Part shown: positions 1 to 42,528 of the stretch, piece by piece
Position numbering within the stretch: position 1 is the first letter of the stretch
Layout of the letters: every line of letters begins with the position of its first letter
Assembly: GCA_963711375.1 (NCBI GenBank)
Contig: CAVQDV010000002.1
Location: forward strand, 12,649 to 76,648
Direction of reading: 5' to 3'
DNA length: 64,000 nt
From: an uncultured Gammaproteobacteria bacterium
GTDB taxonomy: Bacteria; Pseudomonadota; Gammaproteobacteria; Coxiellales; Coxiellaceae
Position numbers and translations under genes: made by a program
The notes under the pieces: generated by a model
Database searches by the model: none
What the model was told of the DNA's origin: nothing
What the model saw: the letters and a program-made list of their open reading frames with translations, nothing else

Positions 1-72
1 AACGTCACTTTTGCCCCTGTAAACGGCGCTTTCGACCCCGTAAACGTCACTCCCTGTCCTGTAAATGTCACC
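1..72. repeat. Iteron-like direct repeats (CCYGTAAAYGKCRC): three full copies plus one cut by the window edge, about 21 bp periodicity
   Basis: Copies read at 16-29, 37-50 and 58-72, with a partial copy at 1-8. The reverse-complement form GGTGACRTYTACRGG recurs at 4147, 5791, 5945 and 5965. Confidence 0.7.
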
Positions 73-257
73 AAAAAATATTTATCTACCTGAAAGCATT
101 AAAAAAATTTAAGACTAAACAACAAATAAATATATTAAAAATTAAAACACGTTGTGTTTATCTTGTAAATAAGAAATTTTAATAAATTATTGTATTTTCA
201 TAAAAAGGTGGTTAAATTAGAATAACTGTGAAATTTCAACTTCTAGGGAAATAAACT
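73..257. other. Very AT-rich tract between iterons and parA; candidate oriV unwinding region and parA promoter
   Basis: Long A/T runs directly abut the iteron array, which is the classical iteron-plasmid origin layout. No convincing DnaA box was found. Confidence 0.4.
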
Positions 258-2534: not shown

Positions 2535-3836
2535 ATGGATGCACATATGGAAATTAGTACAGTACAAGAAAAACGTTCTGAGCTCAAAAAGCATGTGAAT
2601 GCCATTCATTGCTCTAATAACCTGTCCTTAATGCAAAGAAAGCTATTTAATGCCTTACTGTTTAATGCGTATCCCGAGCTGCCGCATCGATCTCAGTTTC
2701 AGATCACCAGTAAGGAGCTCTGTCGGTTAATTGGATTCAATAGTAATGATTATGCAAGACTCAAAAATGCGCTGAAAGGGCTTATGTCTATCGTTATTGA
2801 GTGGGATGTTTTAGATAGGGCCGATGAAAAGGACTCATGGAAGGCCAGTACTATCTTAGCGTCGGTTGAGTTAAAGAATGGCCTTTGCTCCTATGAATAC
2901 AGCCAAGTGATGAGTCAATATCTTTACCAACCTGAAATTTATGGCCGCATTAACATTGAGTTGGTGGCAAAGTTTAAATCCAGTTATGCCTTAGCCTTAT
3001 ATGAAAATTGCATTCGCTACCAAAACTTGCCTCAAACTCCCTGGTTTCCAATAGCGGTATTCAGGCCATTGATGGGCGTTGAAGAGGGAAAATACAAAGA
3101 GTTTAAAGCCTTTAAACGCCGAGTGCTGGATATTGCTATAGACGAAGTCAATAACATTTCACCCATCAAGATCGTTCCGGAAATTGATAGAAGAAATCAG
3201 TCCGTTACTCGAGTTCGTTTCCTGCTGGATAAGAATGGGCCTATTGATGCGGCTAAGCTTATGGTTGATCAGACCGTTTCTTCAGACGTCAAGACTTCTT
3301 TAATTGAGGTTTTTGGCTTCTCAGACGAAAAAGTGAAAGATATATTGGGTCAATACGAAGTAAATTATGTGAGAGAAAAAATTGATCAAATCCGATCGTC
3401 GAAGAGTTTCTTGTCGGGAAAAATTGAAGGCGTGGCGGGTTACTTAATTGACTCGCTTCGCCATGACTACAAAGCCAATAAATCCAGTAAAACTCTTGTT
3501 GCTGAGTTACGTTTAAAAAAGGTTCTCGAAGAAAAGGCTGAAGAGAGCCATGAAGAAGACTTGAAAAATCGTTATTCCCTCTATGTGAATAAGAAAATCC
3601 AAACTTACCTTTCAGGACTCACTGAACAACAGACAGGGGATTTAAAAGCGGAATTTGAACTCAAGGTGGTCAAAGAGAATGCCGTTTTGCATAAATGGTA
3701 TATCAAACATGGACTGGATCACCCTGGAACTAAGGCCAGTTTCAACACATTTGTTCGAACTGTTGGAGGTCACTTCATTGGGGAGATTTTGTCCTTTGAA
3801 TCGTTCATCCAGTTTCTAAAAGACTTTAATGAATAG
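2535..3836 (+). CDS. Plasmid replication initiator (Rep, iteron-type, winged-helix-like)
   Basis: 433 aa. N-terminal NNLSLMQRKLFNALLFNAYPEL resembles Rep_3-type initiators. It sits next to parAB and is flanked by iterons. The start could be 2547. Confidence 0.6.
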   Translation: MDAHMEISTVQEKRSELKKHVNAIHCSNNLSLMQRKLFNALLFNAYPELPHRSQFQITSKELCRLIGFNSNDYARLKNALKGLMSIVIEWDVLDRADEKDSWKASTILASVELKNGLCSYEYSQVMSQYLYQPEIYGRINIELVAKFKSSYALALYENCIRYQNLPQTPWFPIAVFRPLMGVEEGKYKEFKAFKRRVLDIAIDEVNNISPIKIVPEIDRRNQSVTRVRFLLDKNGPIDAAKLMVDQTVSSDVKTSLIEVFGFSDEKVKDILGQYEVNYVREKIDQIRSSKSFLSGKIEGVAGYLIDSLRHDYKANKSSKTLVAELRLKKVLEEKAEESHEEDLKNRYSLYVNKKIQTYLSGLTEQQTGDLKAEFELKVVKENAVLHKWYIKHGLDHPGTKASFNTFVRTVGGHFIGEILSFESFIQFLKDFNE

Positions 3837-4146
3837 AGAACCCATTCTCAATTTTCTAAACCCATCCAATGGTCGCTTTGCAGATCGATCTCTGCTTCAC
3901 CGAGGCTGGTTTCATTTTAATTTTACCATTAAAGCAAGTGCCAGCCGCCCCAACGGCGTTCATAGACTTTCTAGTTTTAATCATTAGAGAACTCATCTTG
4001 GCTCATTATTGTGGGATTGTCTCCTAAAAAAAAGCTCGAATCAGCTAGGTTTGCCACGCATTGCATTTTTTTTATAAAACAATCCAGTGAATTTGAAACC
4101 AATCTGATCGCGCTGATAGGAAAAAATAGTGCTGGGACGTACTAGG

Positions 4147-4161
4147 GGTGACGTTTACAGG
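4147..4161. repeat. Iteron copy in inverted orientation (GGTGACGTTTACAGG)
   Basis: Reverse complement of the motif at 1-72. It lies 10 nt before the split hairpin that carries the IS. Confidence 0.6.
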
Positions 4162-4182
4162 ATATTTTTCAGGAGTTCCGCT

Positions 4183-4442
4183 ATGTGCATAGTCAAGTAG
4201 AACCGTAAAAAAATCCCTCCCGGTTAAATCCAATATGGATAACGGGTCATATACCATCCTTGAGCACTTAGCTTGATACCAAACACATCGACAACGTTAT
4301 TTAAAAACCTTTATAGGCCAATCTGCTATTCGTGGTTATTTCCGTAAAAATACGCACAAGTTGTCCGTTCGATTTATAAAAATGCGTGCCCCAAACTCGC
4401 TAACGTGGCTGCCCCTACCAAGGTAAGAGCCCACAGGAACTG
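4183..4442 (-). ncRNA. Candidate bridge/seek guide RNA locus in the 3' non-coding arm of the IS
   Basis: The non-coding arm downstream of the transposase is 260 nt, against 91 nt upstream. The octamer AACTCGCT (4394-4401) repeats the terminal 8 nt of the opposite IS end (5627-5634). RNA structure was not evaluated. Confidence 0.3.
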
Positions 4443-5543
4443 CTACGAGGTCACGCAATCGTAATTGTTAGCATCAGCTTCTGTCGCTTGCAAGGATTTT
4501 ATTTCATACAGCACACCCTGTTGTACACAGGATCTCAATCGGCCTGCCAGCTTTCTGGCTATCGCCACAATAGCTCTCTTACCTCCCCTTGTACTGGCAA
4601 TGCGGTTATAGGCTTCTTTTAATACAGAATCCTGTTGAATAGCAATCCAGGCTGATTCAACAAACATATGACGAAGCACTGCTCGTCCCTGACGACTCAT
4701 GTGGCCTTGACGAACGCGTTCGCCAGATGAATATTCAACTGGTGTAAATCCCAAGTAATTAAATAATTTTTTTTCGTTCGTAAATTGACTCATATCCCCG
4801 AGCTCATCTTTCAACTTTAATGCTGTGATATCCCCAATTCCCGGCGCACTTTTGTAGATAGATAAAAGCGCTTTTTCCTTATCCGTTTGCATTTCCATTA
4901 GTTCACGCTCTATTTTTTTTAAATCCTCTGTAAATCTTAACCATTGATCAGAATAGTGCCTTAACGAGTAATAATAGCCCATTGGATAATTTAATTCTTT
5001 CACCTGTTCTACTTTTTTTCCAAGCCACGTTTTGCATAATATTGTATCGTCGTCCATTTTAATTAATCCTTGAGTAAATAATAATCCTTTAATTTTTTGC
5101 CCGACTTGATGTCGAAGCTTAACGATATTATTCCTCAATCGGGAGGCACTACGTTTTGCTTCTTGTTCAAGACTAGGAATATAAATACACTTCAAGCGCC
5201 CGGCCGCTAATTGCACCGCTATTTTTTTAGCATCTCGCTTGTCGGTTTTTACGCGATCTCTTGTTGCCACCTCTATCGAACCTGGATGAATGACTCGGTT
5301 TTTTATTCCGGCTTTTAGCAGCTCCCGATGAAGGTGGAACCCCGAAAATCCTGCTTCGTAGGCGGATTCAACCTGAGCATTTACAAAACAATTTTGAATA
5401 TAATTAATTAACGTCGCTGGGTCGGCCGGCATCGTATCTTTTTTAATCACTTCACCCTCGCAAACGCTAACACAGGCGTACGTTTTTTTGTGTACATCTA
5501 TGCCTAGATAAACTGTTTTTCCAGTATAATCGTATTTCCCCAT
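4443..5543 (-). CDS. IS110-family DEDD transposase/recombinase
   Basis: 366 aa. Motifs YLGIDVHKKTY, KTDKRDAKKIA, APGIGDITALKL and FTPVEYSSGE are typical of IS110/IS1111 transposases. Confidence 0.9.
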   Translation of the reverse strand: MGKYDYTGKTVYLGIDVHKKTYACVSVCEGEVIKKDTMPADPATLINYIQNCFVNAQVESAYEAGFSGFHLHRELLKAGIKNRVIHPGSIEVATRDRVKTDKRDAKKIAVQLAAGRLKCIYIPSLEQEAKRSASRLRNNIVKLRHQVGQKIKGLLFTQGLIKMDDDTILCKTWLGKKVEQVKELNYPMGYYYSLRHYSDQWLRFTEDLKKIERELMEMQTDKEKALLSIYKSAPGIGDITALKLKDELGDMSQFTNEKKLFNYLGFTPVEYSSGERVRQGHMSRQGRAVLRHMFVESAWIAIQQDSVLKEAYNRIASTRGGKRAIVAIARKLAGRLRSCVQQGVLYEIKSLQATEADANNYDCVTS

Positions 5544-5634
5544 GAGTTCTCTCCTTGTAGGTTGTTTGAAGTAAACGCAAGTTTACTCGGAGGGATTCTC
5601 TTGGGGTACCTCTAATGCAACATAGCAACTCGCT

Positions 5635-5766
5635 TCAGCGGGAACTCCTTCCTGGTTTTAACGCTGGCGCGGTGGGAGACCCACCGCTGGCGCCTAGGGG
5701 GAGCCTTGCTCCCCCTAGGGACCCCCAGCTTTTTGCAGCAATTCCCGCTTTAGCGGGAATTGCTGG
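5635..5766. repeat. GC-rich composite palindromic element, copy 1 (three hairpin modules); its terminal hairpin is the IS target
   Basis: Hairpins CCTAGGGGGAGCCTTGCTCCCCCTAGG, GGTGGGAGACCCACC and GCAGCAATTCCCGCTTTAGCGGGAATTGCTGG. An inverted copy lies at 6026-6264. Confidence 0.75.
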
Positions 5767-5790
5767 ATATTTTTAAAATTCTTCATTTGG

Positions 5791-5806
5791 GAGTGACATT
5801 TACGGG
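5791..5806. repeat. Iteron copy (GAGTGACATTTACGGG)
   Basis: Matches the iteron consensus in inverted orientation. Confidence 0.55.
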
Positions 5807-5944
5807 ATACTGAAATCAATGCCCTGGTCAGAGGAAAATATGAGCAAACAGATCTTTTTTAGTACGATCTTTTTTGTTTTTTCGGAAAATTCAGCAATAA
5901 TGTCAGTATCAGCCTTTGATTTAATCGATAAAATTACCTGAAGG

Positions 5945-5980
5945 GGTGACATTTACAGGATGGGGGTGACGTCTACAGGA
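5945..5980. repeat. Two tandem iteron copies (GGTGACATTTACAGGA, GGTGACGTCTACAGGA), 20 bp apart
   Basis: Direct reading; same motif as at 1-72 in the opposite orientation. Confidence 0.65.
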
Positions 5981-6025
5981 TGAAATAAAGAGACTCATTT
6001 AAATAAAATAGCTCAATAATTCAAA

Positions 6026-6264
6026 CTAAAGCGGGAATTGCTACAAAAAGCTGACGTCCTAGGGGGAGCAAGGCTCACTGCCATTGAATTAAGGATATCT
6101 GATACCCGATCGCTAAATTTTCAGAAGCTGATTCTGAAGCTTGTGTTTTAGGGGAATGCCTTAATTCAATGGCAGTGGAGCAAGGCTCCCCCTAGGCGCC
6201 AGCGGGCATCCCCACCGCGCCAGCGTTAATGCCAGGAAGGAGTTCCCGCTTAAGCGGGAACTCC
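6026..6264. repeat. GC-rich composite palindromic element, copy 2 (inverted relative to copy 1), interrupted by a 100-bp insert
   Basis: The reverse complement of 5635-5766 aligns over its whole length apart from the insert at 6077-6176 and a truncated outer arm of the first hairpin. It contains the intact hairpin GGAGTTCCCGCTTAAGCGGGAACTCC at 6239-6264. Confidence 0.75.
6077..6176. mobile_element. MITE-like 100-bp element with 18-bp perfect terminal inverted repeats
   Basis: ACTGCCATTGAATTAAGG (6077-6094) and CCTTAATTCAATGGCAGT (6159-6176). Flanked by the direct repeat GGAGCAAGGCTC (6065-6076 and 6177-6188). Absent from copy 1 of the host element. Confidence 0.65.
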
Positions 6265-6419
6265 TGAAAATAGCTTAGGTTTAGCAGTATAGCTTAGGAT
6301 GTCAAAATTGTTTCACGTAGAACACGAGCTTAGTGCCATAAGTTTATTGCTTGCGTAGATGTCAACTGGAAAGTATGCTAGCCTTAATTCGATTTACAAA
6401 CTAAACGTGAGTTTATAGC

Positions 6420-7202
6420 GTGTCAGATAATGGGAAAATAGAAAAAATGCGTAAGGCGGGTCAATTAACGGCCCAGGTATTAGAGGCCGTCAGCGAATTT
6501 ATTAAACCCGGCTTAACCACCTTAGAGCTCGATGCTTTTTGCGAAAATTTTATTGTTAATACACTAAAGGCCATTCCAGGCAGCAAAGGACAATATGGTT
6601 ATCCATTTACGATCAATACCTCTCTCAATAATGTTGTTTGCCACGGAATGCCCAATGATAAACCGCTTAAGAGTGGTGATATCGTCAATGTGGATGTGAC
6701 AGTGATATCTGAGGGTCATTACGGCGATAGTAGTAAAATGTTTTGCATCGGAAAAGTTGCTCCCCATGCCTTAAGGCTAGTGAACGTCACGCAGGAATGT
6801 CTTTATAAGGGAATAATGGCCGTCAAACCAGGAGCTACATTAGGCGACATTGGTCATGCTATTCAAACTCATGCGGAAAAAAATCATTACACAGTGGTAC
6901 GAGAATATTGTGGTCATGGCATTGGAACGAAAATGCACGAAGATCCCCAGGTTTTGCATTGGGGTAAAAAGGACACGGGTGTAGTGCTAAAGCCGGGTAT
7001 GACTTTCACTATCGAACCTATGATTAATCAAGGGAAGCGGGATGTAAAGGTGCTACAGGATGGTTGGAGTGTGGTGACGCGGGACAGGTCATTGTCCGCA
7101 CAGTGGGAGCACACAATTTTAGTGACCGAAACCGGATTTGAAATTTTAACCCTGCGAAAGGAAGAGCAGGCGCTTGTTGAGCAATACTCGGAACGGTCAT
7201 AA
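6420..7202 (+). CDS. map: Type I methionine aminopeptidase
   Basis: 260 aa, GTG start. All metal-ligand contexts are present (DIVNVDVT, YGDSSKMF, CGHGIG, FTIEPM, WEHTILV). Confidence 0.9.
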   Translation: MSDNGKIEKMRKAGQLTAQVLEAVSEFIKPGLTTLELDAFCENFIVNTLKAIPGSKGQYGYPFTINTSLNNVVCHGMPNDKPLKSGDIVNVDVTVISEGHYGDSSKMFCIGKVAPHALRLVNVTQECLYKGIMAVKPGATLGDIGHAIQTHAEKNHYTVVREYCGHGIGTKMHEDPQVLHWGKKDTGVVLKPGMTFTIEPMINQGKRDVKVLQDGWSVVTRDRSLSAQWEHTILVTETGFEILTLRKEEQALVEQYSERS

Positions 7203-39664: not shown

Positions 39665-39671
39665 AGCTTAA

Positions 39672-42528
<2,857 letters not shown>

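What the first reader, a model, noticed from the sequence alone, without database searches (positions are those of the whole stretch)
4183..5634. IS1111-type element caught inside a hairpin target, with a long 3' non-coding arm that could encode a bridge/seek guide RNA
An intact hairpin GGAGTTCCCGCTTAAGCGGGAACTCC exists at 6239-6264. The same hairpin is split here into GGAGTTCCGCT (4172-4182) and TCAGCGGGAACTCC (5635-5648), which gives base-level IS boundaries. CGCT is shared at both junctions (a core-like overlap). There are no terminal IRs and only 9-bp subterminal IRs. The transposase has IS110-family DEDD motifs. The non-coding arms are asymmetric, 91 nt upstream and 260 nt downstream. IS110-family recombinases are known to use a structured RNA from a non-coding end that base-pairs with both target and donor DNA, and in the IS1111 group this RNA comes from the downstream end. 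Inside the downstream arm, AACTCGCT (4394-4401) repeats the last 8 nt of the opposite IS end (5627-5634), as a donor-recognition guide segment might. Because an intact copy of the target lies in the same window, this is a well-defined case for decoding guide-target rules.
Basis: partly seen in the sequence, partly recalled or inferred. Interest (0 to 1): 0.8.

Follow-up and report, generated by a model that had tools for sequence, protein, structure and literature searches.

The report
RNA-guided IS1111-type insertion sequence in hairpin
This is an intact jumping gene of the known IS110/IS1111 "RNA-guided transposase" kind, inserted in a repeated hairpin; I could locate its guide RNA and read which bases match the hairpin, so it is a clean but ordinary example of a mechanism described in 2024.

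Summary
A 1.45-kb element with a 366-aa DEDD transposase gene (4443-5543, minus strand) splits a hairpin, and an intact copy of that hairpin lies at 6239-6264.

The best boundaries are 4180-5630 (1451 bp), not 4183-5634. Only these rejoin the flanks into a 26-nt hairpin that aligns without a gap to the intact copy.

The downstream arm does encode a structured RNA (about 4306-4456, minus strand). It starts 14 nt inside the transposase ORF. A covariance model built only from 39 relatives finds it at 131 bits (E 6e-30). Of its 25 base pairs, 17 show compensatory changes.

The RNA has two parallel loops:
- **Target loop:** UAGCAGUUCC pairs with the right flank GGAACTCCTG, and AGCG copies the last 4 nt of the left flank. 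Both segments covary with the flanks across 34-38 relatives (z about 13).
- **Donor loop:** CAACU and AUAGC-AG match the element's own ends.

The shared CGCT is a coincidence. The likely core is the dinucleotide AG/GG.

Verdict: a new member of a known kind (the IS1111-group bridge/seek RNA system). NCBI's model already names this protein family "RNA-guided transposase". Interest is moderate to low.

The parts
4180..5630 (-). The insertion sequence (1451 bp, counting one copy of the 2-nt core). In sense it reads AGTTGCTATG...CACATAGC.
   Evidence: Rejoined flanks align gap-free to the intact site only with these boundaries. The ends AGTTGCTATG and CACATAGC are conserved in relatives that have unrelated flanks.
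4443..5543 (-). Transposase/recombinase gene, 366 aa. It has a DEDD RuvC-like domain and a Tnp domain with an SSG motif.
   Evidence: Pfam PF01548 and PF02371. NCBIfam NF033542 'IS110 family RNA-guided transposase', 213 bits against a cut-off of 140. D16, E63, D101, D104, S272, S273 and G274 are invariant in 30 homologues. PDB relatives are ISCro4 and IS621.
4306..4456 (-). Predicted bridge/seek RNA. The covariance-model match covers 4311-4456, and the P5 hairpin extends to 4306.
   Evidence: The leave-one-out covariance model R1 scores 131.4 bits, E 5.8e-30, full length, and this is the only hit in the window. 96.8% of cells are paired and 17 of 25 pairs have compensatory changes.
4446..4456 (-). 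P1 5' strand GCGUGACCUCG. It lies inside the last codons of the transposase gene (C-V-T-S).
   Evidence: It pairs with 4384-4393. This helix is 99.1% paired, with changes on both sides in 8 of 10 pairs.
4436..4445 (-). Right-target guide UAGCAGUUCC. It includes the UAG stop codon and pairs with the top strand of the right flank GGAACTCCTG.
   Evidence: 9 of 10 positions pair in the window, counting G-U. Across the family, elements pair with their own flank at 6.85 of 9 positions against 3.97+-0.22 for shuffled partners.
4404..4435 (-). P2 hairpin (UGUGG...CCACG) that separates the two target guides.
   Evidence: Its base pairs are conserved and show covariation. The hairpin is also recovered when the arm is folded alone.
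4396..4401 (-). Left-target guide AGCG (4398-4401) plus AG (4396-4397). AGCG has the same sense as the last 4 nt of the left flank.
   Evidence: Positions -1 to -4 are identical to the element's own left flank in 33, 34, 29 and 26 of 38 distinct elements; position -5 matches in 10 of 38. Own flank scores 3.21 of 4 against 1.23+-0.15 for shuffled partners.
4384..4393 (-). P1 3' strand UGGGGCACGC.
4359..4363 (-). Right-donor guide CAACU, complementary to the first 5 nt of the element (AGTTG).
   Evidence: The 5th base covaries with the left end in relatives: AGTTC with GAACU (5 elements), AGTTT with AAACU, AGTGA with UCACU.
4331..4358 (-). P4 hairpin (UGUG...CCACG) that separates the two donor guides.
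   Evidence: 11 pairs, 7 with changes on both sides.
4323..4329 (-). Left-donor guide AUAGC (4325-4329) plus AG (4323-4324). It has the same sense as the last 5 nt of the element followed by its first 2 nt, which is the circle junction.
   Evidence: ATAGC pairs with AUAGC in 34 elements. The two variants change on both sides: ATAGG with AUAGG, and ATAAC with AUAAC.
4306..4321 (-). P5 hairpin UUGGCCUAUAAAGGUU, which closes the conserved RNA region.
   Evidence: The stem changes in step in relatives (GGCC/GGUU, GCC/GGC, AGGC/GCCU), judged by eye. It was not counted formally.
4191..4196 (-). -35 half (TTGACT) of the promoter that would form when the ends are joined in a circle.
   Evidence: TTGACT, a 17-nt spacer and TATGTT appear across the joined ends. 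The motif is conserved in relatives. Junction promoters are known for this family (PMC11187229, PMC2104537).
5619..5624 (-). -10 half (TATGTT) of the junction promoter.
   Evidence: Same as for the -35 half. No sigma-70-like promoter was found on the minus strand inside the integrated element.
5620..5626 (-). Left subterminal inverted repeat GCTATGT. It pairs with ACATAGC at 4180-4186.
   Evidence: In the exact 7-bp repeat scan it is found at the same positions in 9 of 32 distinct elements, including this one.
5631..5648 (+). The larger part of the split target hairpin (CGCTTCAGCGGGAACTCC). This is the left flank in the element's sense.
4172..4179 (+). The smaller part of the split target hairpin (GGAGTTCC). 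This is the right flank in the element's sense. 4178-4179 (CC, or GG in sense) is the target copy of the core.
6239..6264 (.). Intact, unoccupied copy of the target hairpin. AGCGGGAACTCCTG at 6253-6266 (+) is an exact predicted target.

Best explanation
**What it is.** Window 4180-5630 (minus strand) is an intact IS1111-group member of the IS110 family. It consists of a DEDD recombinase gene followed by a bridge/seek RNA of about 150 nt that overlaps the last 14 nt of the ORF.

**RNA anatomy.** The RNA has two loops built on the same plan: a 5' guide, a UGUG...CCACG hairpin, then a 3' guide followed by AG and (U/A)UUGG.
- *Target loop.* It is closed by helix P1. Its 5' guide UAGCAGUUCC pairs with the top strand of the hairpin's right part (GGAACTCCTG). 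Its 3' guide AGCG(+AG) pairs with the bottom strand of the 4 nt to the left of the cut.
- *Donor loop.* CAACU pairs with the element's first bases (AGTTG). AUAGC-AG copies its last bases plus the junction.

**Inferred mechanism, by analogy with IS621 and ISEc11.** Exchange takes place at a 2-nt core, AG in the donor and GG or AG in targets. The element excises as a circle whose joined ends form the promoter TTGACT-N17-TATGTT. That promoter drives transcription of the recombinase gene and the RNA. The RNA is processed and bound by recombinase tetramers, which bring the circle junction and a hairpin repeat together and recombine them without duplicating the target.

**What is shown and what is inferred.**
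- Shown here: the RNA's conservation and structure, the covariation of guides with flanks and with ends, the boundaries, and the protein family.
- Inferred: expression and processing of the RNA, circle formation, the exact core, and current activity.
For: **Protein.** Pfam, NCBIfam and PDB matches. Catalytic D, E, D, D and SSG residues are invariant.

**RNA conservation.** Bases 33-144 of the arm are 70-93% identical in DNA among relatives whose proteins share only 47-76% identity.

**RNA structure.**
- The RNAalifold consensus has 17 compensatory pairs.
- 96.8% of cells are paired. None of 500 shuffles reaches any observed measure, and slid controls pair at 32-56%.
- The covariance model built without the window sequence scores 131 bits on 4311-4456. 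[quoted passage not shown]

**Target guides.** Permutation tests give z of about 13 for both guides. Three lineages show the same rule:
- the window itself;
- a 17-copy family, with guide UAGCAAUUCC, right flank GGAATTGCTG and left flank ending AGCG;
- a 10-copy family in another hairpin repeat, with guide GCGGG and a left flank ending GCGGG.

**Donor guides.** They covary with end variants in 7 + 2 elements.

**Boundaries and absence of duplication.**

**Order of guides.** The top-strand guide lies 5' of the bottom-strand guide, as reported for IS1111-type seekRNAs (PMC11187229).

**Junction promoter.** Sequence; published precedent.
Against: - No transcript, circle or transposition data exist for this element.
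- It is single-copy. The exact protein occurs on only 3 public contigs, and the two contigs read are this same locus. Exact predicted targets 600 bp away are empty, so the element may be inactive or newly arrived.
- The left-target guide is only 4 nt long.
- The window's right guide has one C-C mismatch with its own flank.
- Relatives use two registers for the right guide, one nucleotide apart (12 against 14 lineages). A rigid geometry does not predict this.
- The core AG/GG is inferred only from conserved dinucleotides. The window has AG on one side and GG on the other.
- The donor guides are nearly invariant, so their covariation rests on few variants.
- The model does not hit enterobacterial IS1111-group elements. 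Homology to the experimentally studied seekRNAs therefore rests on architecture and position, not on sequence.
Confidence: 0.82

Rival explanations
1. The element is 4183-5634. CGCT is the crossover core shared by donor and target. AACTCGCT (4394-4401) is the donor-recognition guide that matches the opposite end.
For: The sequences are present as described, and 9 nt (TAGCGAGTT) equal the joined ends under those boundaries. In this one element the data cannot separate 'matches the left end' from 'matches the left flank plus the left end'.
Against: - In relatives the 4 nt equivalent to AGCG differ (CCCA, GGGC, GGTA, ATAA, GCGA and others). They follow that element's own left flank, while the ends stay AGTTGC...CATAGC.
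- Copies of one multi-copy element differ in these flank bases: AGCG, AGTG and GGCG.
- AGC follows CACAT in 33 of 34 distinct relatives with a mapped right end, irrespective of target.
- These boundaries force a 1-nt gap against the intact site.
Confidence: 0.06
2. The hairpin is recognised by the protein as a DNA structure, which was the view before 2024. On this reading the conserved downstream arm is a cis-acting DNA or mRNA element (recombinase binding sites, terminator, mRNA stabiliser) and not a guide.
For: - All three lineages with recognisable targets insert in palindromic repeats.
- Older work on IS1111 proposed stem-loop recognition (PMC2104537).
- The arm alone is no more stable than shuffled sequence.
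- A hairpin followed by a U-run lies further downstream, at 4207-4248.
Against: - Compensatory base-pair changes in three helices show selection on RNA structure.
- The unpaired loop segments change together with the flanks, in the strand pattern expected for pairing.
- Other relatives insert in non-palindromic sequence that still matches their guides, for example L055 and L016.
- Experiments on ISEc11, ISPa11 and ISKpn4 show that the downstream RNA is essential and programmable (PMC11187229).
Confidence: 0.05
3. The element is a correctly built but no longer mobile copy: a single, possibly plasmid-borne arrival that has not spread. On this reading the guide-target match is a historical record and not a working system.
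For: - There is one copy in the window, and the exact protein is on 3 contigs; the two contigs read carry this same locus.
- Perfect predicted targets at 6253-6266(+), 6237-6250(-) and 5637-5650(+), and wobble-compatible targets at 5736-5765, are unoccupied.
- No promoter was detected inside the integrated element.
- It sits among iteron-like repeats next to a RepM-like gene.
Against: - The ORF, catalytic residues, RNA helices, guides, both ends and the junction-promoter halves are all intact.
- Low expression in the integrated state is normal for this family (PMC13626964, PMC11187229).
Confidence: 0.25

Closest known systems
IS1111-group seekRNA elements ISEc11, ISPa11, ISKpn4 and ISPst6 (Siddiquee et al. 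2024, PMC11187229)
   Same: - A DEDD transposase, subterminal inverted repeats and a long non-coding region downstream of the transposase gene.
- An RNA of about 80-150 nt that starts near the stop codon.
- One segment complementary to the target's top strand, placed 5' of one complementary to the bottom strand.
- No target duplication, and a junction promoter on the circle.
- ISPa11 also targets a repeated extragenic palindrome.
   Different: - The protein is only about 25-30% identical to the enterobacterial relatives I could fetch, and my RNA model does not detect their RNAs.
- Here the bottom-strand guide is only 4 nt (plus AG).
- The top-strand guide overlaps the stop codon.
- Nothing here has been tested experimentally.
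IS621 bridge RNA (Durrant et al. 2024, PMC11208160; Hiraizumi et al. 2024, PMC11208158)
   Same: - Two loops, one for the target and one for the donor. Each loop has one guide for the top strand and one for the bottom strand, meeting at a 2-nt core.
- The catalytic D, E, D, D and Ser residues are conserved.
- The constant AG-UU after the left-target guide matches the element's first bases. This is reminiscent of handshake bases.
   Different: - The RNA is downstream of the gene, not upstream.
- The order of guides within each loop is reversed.
- The core is AG/GG, not CT.
- The inverted repeats are long.
- The donor loop may be part of a multi-branch region.
- The protein resembles IS621 detectably only in the C-terminal domain (E 1e-9).
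IS1111 of Coxiella burnetii in repeated stem-loop targets (QMITE2/REP) (PMC2104537, PMC5896051)
   Same: The layout is the same. 'Outer' inverted repeats are the two halves of a chromosomal stem-loop that occurs many times in the genome. 'Inner' repeats are the element's termini and are predicted to form a promoter in a circle. Here too the target hairpin sits at the end of a larger MITE-like repeat.
   Different: - I could not retrieve the Coxiella element to compare it. It was not among the 120 closest proteins in two searches.
- The host here is a different organism with 39% G+C. The closest named relatives are from Aquicella, Facilibium and uncultured Gammaproteobacteria.
ISPpu9 of Pseudomonas putida (PMC12288879)
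   Same: An IS110-family element that inserts in repeated extragenic palindromes and recombines at a conserved AG dinucleotide present at both termini.
   Different: ISPpu9 belongs to the IS110 group: it has no subterminal repeats and a different RNA arrangement. Its circles do not create a new promoter.

Membership tests
IS110 family, IS1111 group (insertion sequence) | Transposase with an N-terminal DEDD (RuvC-like) domain and a C-terminal Tnp domain carrying a conserved S/T-G | tested here: met
   PF01548 (E 9e-13) and PF02371 (E 6e-21). NF033542 at 213 bits against a cut-off of 140. D16, E63, D101, D104 and S272-S273-G274 are invariant in 30 homologues.
IS110 family, IS1111 group (insertion sequence) | Subterminal inverted repeats of about 7-17 bp | tested here: met
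   GCTATGT / ACATAGC is 7 bp perfect, and 11 of 12 with one bulge. It lies 4 nt in from the left end and at the right end. In the exact 7-bp repeat scan it was found at the same positions in 9 of 32 distinct elements, including this one. The offsets differ from the 7 and 3 bp I recall for IS4321, which I did not verify.
IS110 family, IS1111 group (insertion sequence) | The longer non-coding region lies downstream of the transposase gene | tested here: met
   263 nt downstream against 87 nt upstream, using the corrected boundaries.
IS110 family, IS1111 group (insertion sequence) | Sequence-specific insertion without target-site duplication | tested here: met
   The rejoined flanks equal the intact site with no gain or loss of bases. 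Multi-copy relatives always sit in the same sequence.
IS110 family, IS1111 group (insertion sequence) | A circular intermediate whose joined ends create a promoter | tested here: inconclusive
   The sequence would give TTGACT-N17-TATGTT, and both halves are conserved in relatives. The circle itself cannot be observed with these tools.
IS110 family, IS1111 group (insertion sequence) | Transposase related over its full length to that of IS1111 of Coxiella burnetii | not tested
   The Coxiella protein could not be retrieved.
Bridge / seek RNA | A conserved structured non-coding RNA encoded in the long non-coding end | tested here: met
   131-bit leave-one-out model hit, 17 of 25 compensatory pairs, 0 of 500 shuffles reaching the observed values.
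Bridge / seek RNA | [quoted passage not shown] | tested here: met
   In the window, 9 of 10 (right guide) and 4 of 4 (left guide). Across the family, 6.85 of 9 against 3.97+-0.22, and 3.21 of 4 against 1.23+-0.15, for own flanks against shuffled partners.
Bridge / seek RNA | Segments that match the element's own joined ends (donor recognition) | tested here: met
   CAACU with AGTTG, and AUAGC-AG with ATAGC|AG. There are changes on both sides in 7 + 2 variant elements and 5-6 mismatching elements. The amount of variation is limited.
Bridge / seek RNA | The RNA is made, binds the recombinase, and is required and programmable for recombination | not testable with these tools
   This needs RNA sequencing, pull-down and transposition assays.
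Rfam families | A match to a curated RNA family | tested here: not met
   No relevant match even at E up to 10 in 3500-7000. At gathering thresholds the only hit in the whole window is a TPP riboswitch. Rfam 15 appears to hold no model that detects this RNA.

The most novel reading that the evidence does not exclude
This clade of IS1111-type elements may use a guide code that differs in detail from the studied systems. The clade is widespread in uncultured Gammaproteobacteria, Chlamydiae, Verrucomicrobia, Cyanobacteria and Bacteroidota. Four features stand out:
- The target and donor loops look like tandem duplicates sharing the frame CCACG-N-[guide]-AG-(U/A)UUGG.
- The left-target guide is only 4 nt long.
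- The right-target guide is written over the end of the transposase ORF, stop codon included, so retargeting changes the protein's C-terminus.
- The right guide is read in either of two registers one nucleotide apart in different lineages. This implies a flexible spacing between top-strand and bottom-strand recognition, which the rigid IS621 geometry does not predict.
Probability: 0.35. Interest if true: 0.5.

Novelty: new member of a known kind. Interest (0 to 1): 0.35.

Why it matters
This is a tidy natural example. An intact element, its split target and an intact copy of that target lie within 2 kb. About 50 distinct relatives then allow the guide rules of this sub-family to be read from sequence alone.

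It offers three things:
- a covariance model for an RNA that Rfam does not detect;
- corrected end definitions (AGTTGC...CATAGC, with core AG);
- candidate recombinase-RNA pairs from many phyla for engineering.

It does not change what is known. RNA-guided target choice in IS110/IS1111 elements, hairpin-repeat targeting by IS1111, and junction promoters have all been published, and NCBI's annotation model already labels this protein family 'RNA-guided transposase'.

Tried and rejected
- **Folding the 260-nt arm alone.** It is no more stable than shuffled sequence (z = +0.38), and the fold misses helix P1 because its 5' strand lies in the ORF. This was not informative.
- **Rfam at permissive and gathering thresholds.** Nothing relevant was found.
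- **Near-identical DNA in plasmids.** No match.
- **Independent insertions of the same element.** The two public contigs read that carry the exact protein are the same locus, so they give no independent flanks. I used relatives from genome and metagenome scans instead.
- **Core models.** A 4-nt (AGCG) or 3-nt (AGC) duplicated core is rejected, because in relatives the left flank does not end in AGC. A 1-nt duplicated core is rejected because the bases on the two sides differ.
- **Alternative boundaries.** 4180-5631 and 4182-5632 need a gap or extra mismatches.
- **Helix P3.** A helix closing the donor loop (AAUC/GAUU) was not consistently supported by eye and was left out of the model.
- **Link to experimentally studied elements.** Five enterobacterial IS1111-group loci (IS5708, ISEc45 and others) gave no significant hit with my RNA model.
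- **Retrieving Coxiella IS1111.** A second protein search found no Coxiella burnetii entry in the top 120. Partridge & Hall 2003 is not held.
- **Naming the source organism.** The cluster look-up returned no names.
Full report
**1. The observation**

- The 26-nt perfect palindrome at 6239-6264 is unique in the window at up to 3 mismatches, and none is expected by chance.
- Between the two hairpin halves lies one ORF of 366 aa on the minus strand (4443-5543). It carries Pfam DEDD_Tnp_IS110 and Transposase_20.
- It scores 213 bits on NCBIfam NF033542, 'IS110 family RNA-guided transposase', against a cut-off of 140.
- D16, E63, D101, D104 and S272-S273-G274 are invariant in an alignment of 30 homologues sharing 56-100% identity. 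They correspond by analogy to the D11, E60, D102, D105 and S241 catalytic residues of IS621 (PMC11208158).
- The nearest solved structures are the ISCro4 and IS621 recombinases.
- The window holds only one copy of the element.
- The similarity between the flanks and the intact site extends well beyond the hairpin: 46 nt at 93%. A split target is therefore not a chance resemblance.

**2. Boundaries**

With 4180-5630 (1451 bp) the rejoined flanks read GGAGTTCCCGCTTCAGCGGGAACTCC. That is 26 nt, 25 of 26 identical to the intact hairpin, and the alignment stays gap-free into both flanks.

Relatives agree with this. Whatever their flanks, they begin AGTTGCTATG and end CACATAGC in the sense of the gene. 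The CGCT shared by both junctions is a coincidence between the element's constant end and the hairpin arm.

The conserved inverted repeat is GCTATGT / ACATAGC (11 of 12 with one bulge).

**3. A conserved RNA**

The two public contigs read that carry the exact protein are the same locus. I therefore collected relatives: 79 loci from species-representative genomes and 80 from metagenomes.
- Bases 33-144 of the downstream arm are 70-93% identical in DNA among elements whose proteins share only 47-76% identity with the window's. This is the signature of a constrained non-coding function.
- An alignment of 47 distinct sequences (A2) gives a consensus fold with three helices.
- Counted on a structure I specified, 96.8% of cells are paired and 17 of 25 pairs show changes on both sides. 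None of 500 shuffles reaches any measure, and sliding the partners drops pairing to 32-56%.
- Helix P1 joins GCGUGACCUCG (4446-4456) to UGGGGCACGC (4384-4393). The first strand lies inside the last four codons of the ORF. This explains why folding the arm alone was uninformative (z = +0.38).
- A covariance model built from 39 relatives without the window sequence (A3, R1) finds window 4311-4456 (minus) at 131.4 bits, E 5.8e-30, full length. It finds nothing else in the 64 kb.
- The same model finds the RNA downstream of the gene in 63 of 79 genome loci. These include Chlamydiae, Verrucomicrobia, Cyanobacteria, Bdellovibrionales and Bacteroidota, where protein identity falls to about 28-32%.
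- It does not detect anything significant next to five enterobacterial IS1111-group genes.
- Rfam 15 has no matching family.

**4. Target guides**

Two short segments inside this otherwise constant RNA vary between relatives.

*Right-target guide.* The first segment lies between P1 and the P2 hairpin and is the reverse complement of the element's right flank.
- In the window, UAGCAGUUCC (4436-4445, including the UAG stop codon) pairs with GGAACTCCTG at 9 of 10 positions, counting one G-U.
- Across 34 distinct elements with a right flank, own-flank pairing is 6.85 of 9. With partners shuffled it is 3.97+-0.22, and the maximum of 5000 shuffles is 4.74.

*Left-target guide.* The second segment lies between P2 and the return strand of P1. 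It has the same sense as the last 4 nt of the left flank.
- In the window, AGCG (4398-4401) matches ...GAAGCG.
- Across 38 elements, positions -1 to -4 match in 33, 34, 29 and 26 cases, and position -5 in only 10.
- Own flank scores 3.21 of 4 against 1.23+-0.15 for shuffled partners.

*Multi-copy families.* Two families confirm that these bases come from the target.
- One element has 17 copies in one genome. All have the right flank GGAATTGCTG or GAAATTGCTG, opposite the guide UAGCAAUUCC. Their left flanks end AGCG, AGTG or GGCG, opposite the guide AGCG.
- Another element has 10 copies. All lie in the loop of a CCCCTCTCCC...GGGAGAGGGG hairpin, with the left flank ending GCGGG and the guide reading GCGGG.

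It resembles the opposite end of the element only because that end happens to adjoin ...AGCG in this hairpin.

The order of guides, top-strand match 5' of bottom-strand match, is the one reported for IS1111-type seekRNAs (PMC11187229).

**5. Donor guides and core**

A second hairpin, P4 (4331-4358), has the same frame as P2.
- Just 5' of it, CAACU (4359-4363) is complementary to the element's first five bases, AGTTG.
- Just 3' of it, AUAGC-AG (4323-4329) copies the last five bases plus the first two, which is the circle junction.
- These segments are nearly constant, as the ends are, but where an end varies the RNA follows. AGTTC pairs with GAACU in five elements, AGTTT with AAACU, AGTGA with UCACU, ATAGG with AUAGG, and ATAAC with AUAAC. 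There are 5-6 exceptions.

The two loops are thus parallel: CCACG-U-[AGCG]-AGUUUGG and CCACG-A-[AUAGC]-AGAUUGG.

The element begins with AG, and the right flank begins with AG (24 elements) or GG (10) in all cases. I infer a 2-nt core: AG in the donor and AG or GG in targets. This parallels CT in IS621 and the AG reported for ISPpu9 (PMC12288879). In the window the two copies are AG (5629-5630 in sense) and GG (4178-4179 in sense). This part is inference.

**6. Expression**

Joining the ends gives TTGACT (4191-4196), a 17-nt spacer and TATGTT (5619-5624). Both halves are conserved in relatives. A simple scan finds no sigma-70-like promoter on the minus strand inside the integrated element.

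This fits the published picture, in which the junction promoter of the circle drives one transcript and the RNA is processed from it (PMC11187229; PMC12288879). The same was proposed long ago for IS1111 (PMC2104537).

A hairpin followed by a U-run at 4207-4248 may end the transcript. It does not meet the scanner's terminator rule.

**7. Predicted free targets**

At up to 1 mismatch to AGCGGGAACTCCTG, the window holds only hairpin sites:
- 6253-6266 (+), an exact match;
- 6237-6250 (-);
- 5637-5650 (+), the other arm of the occupied hairpin.

A second hairpin type (5738-5763, GCAATTCCCGCTTTAGCGGGAATTGC) pairs with the right guide at 10 of 10 positions if two G-U pairs are allowed. The guide thus sits between the two repeat sub-types. 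All these sites are empty, and the element appears to be single-copy, so present activity is unknown.

**8. What remains unexplained**

Among relatives the right guide is used in two registers one nucleotide apart. The U before the P2 helix either pairs with the first base of the right flank or does not. The split is about 14 against 12 lineages. The window, the 17-copy family and several others use the second register, in which the two guides overlap the target by one more base. I could not decide whether this reflects flexible geometry or a wrongly placed cut.

**9. Comparison and verdict**

Every defining feature of an IS1111-group element that I could test is met, and the same holds for a bridge/seek RNA. 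Expression, binding and requirement cannot be tested here. The layout, with 'outer' repeats as a chromosomal stem-loop target and 'inner' repeats as the element's termini, is the one described for IS1111 in Coxiella (PMC2104537, PMC5896051).

The specific assignments (donor guide, core, boundaries) are wrong. The thing itself is a new member of a known kind.

Noticed in passing
window 35-73 (-), 4144-4163, 5789-5808, 5942-5961, 5962-5981 (+); ORF 2535-3836: A 20-nt motif, AGGGGTGACRTTTACAGGAT, occurs six times, where 0.06 occurrences are expected by chance. The copies lie around a 433-aa ORF that resembles the replication initiator RepM (74 bits, below the family cut-off). They look like plasmid-type iterons. 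The insertion sequence and the hairpin-repeat cluster sit between copies of the array.
   Followed up: partly
window 5631-5770 and 6013-6275: The target hairpin is the end of a larger repeat built of nested palindromes (CGCTGGCGC..., CCTAGGGGGAGC...GCTCCCCCTAGG, GCAATTCCCGCTTTAGCGGGAATTGC). This repeat is present in inverted copies: 46 nt at 93% and 29 nt at 100% complementary. It resembles the way Coxiella IS1111 targets a palindrome inside the QMITE2 element.
   Followed up: partly
window 5738-5763 and 6028-6045: A second hairpin sub-type (GGAATTGC arms) and a half copy of it are predicted alternative targets. The right-target guide pairs with them at 10 of 10 positions if two G-U pairs are allowed. 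That is better than with the occupied site, which has one C-C mismatch.
   Followed up: partly
window 5589-5597 and 4212-4220 (within inverted repeat 4202-4227 / 5582-5607): There is an inner 9-bp inverted repeat, AATCCCTCC / GGAGGGATT, about 32-34 nt from each end. Seven of 32 relatives have an inner repeat of 9-12 bp at similar positions but with different sequences, where about one would be expected by chance. It could be a pairing between the two ends of the transcript or a protein site. It is unexplained.
   Followed up: partly
relatives L005, L016, L055, L088, L098, L106 against window, L006-L015, L035, L072, L086, L095, L096: The right-target guide is read in two registers one nucleotide apart in different lineages. 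In the second register the two target guides overlap by one extra base.
   Followed up: partly
window 4443-4456: The RNA's closing helix and its right-target guide overlap the last four codons and the stop codon of the transposase gene. The target specificity and the protein's C-terminus are therefore written in the same bases. The C-terminus is the most variable part of the protein alignment.
   Followed up: no
L094:1228-1460: In one relative the sequence that matches the right guide (GGAATTGCTG) is separated from the element's end CACATAGC by an extra AGC. This could be a variant junction or a footprint.
   Followed up: no
L163:2114-2154: About 100 nt downstream of an ISEc45 transposase gene there is a weak, non-significant match (E 2.9) to the target-loop part of my RNA model, with the same guide-hairpin-guide-AGUUUG layout. 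This hints that more distant IS1111-group RNAs share the plan.
   Followed up: no
window 39669-39758 (+): A TPP riboswitch: Rfam RF00059, 66 bits against a gathering score of 54.3.
   Followed up: no
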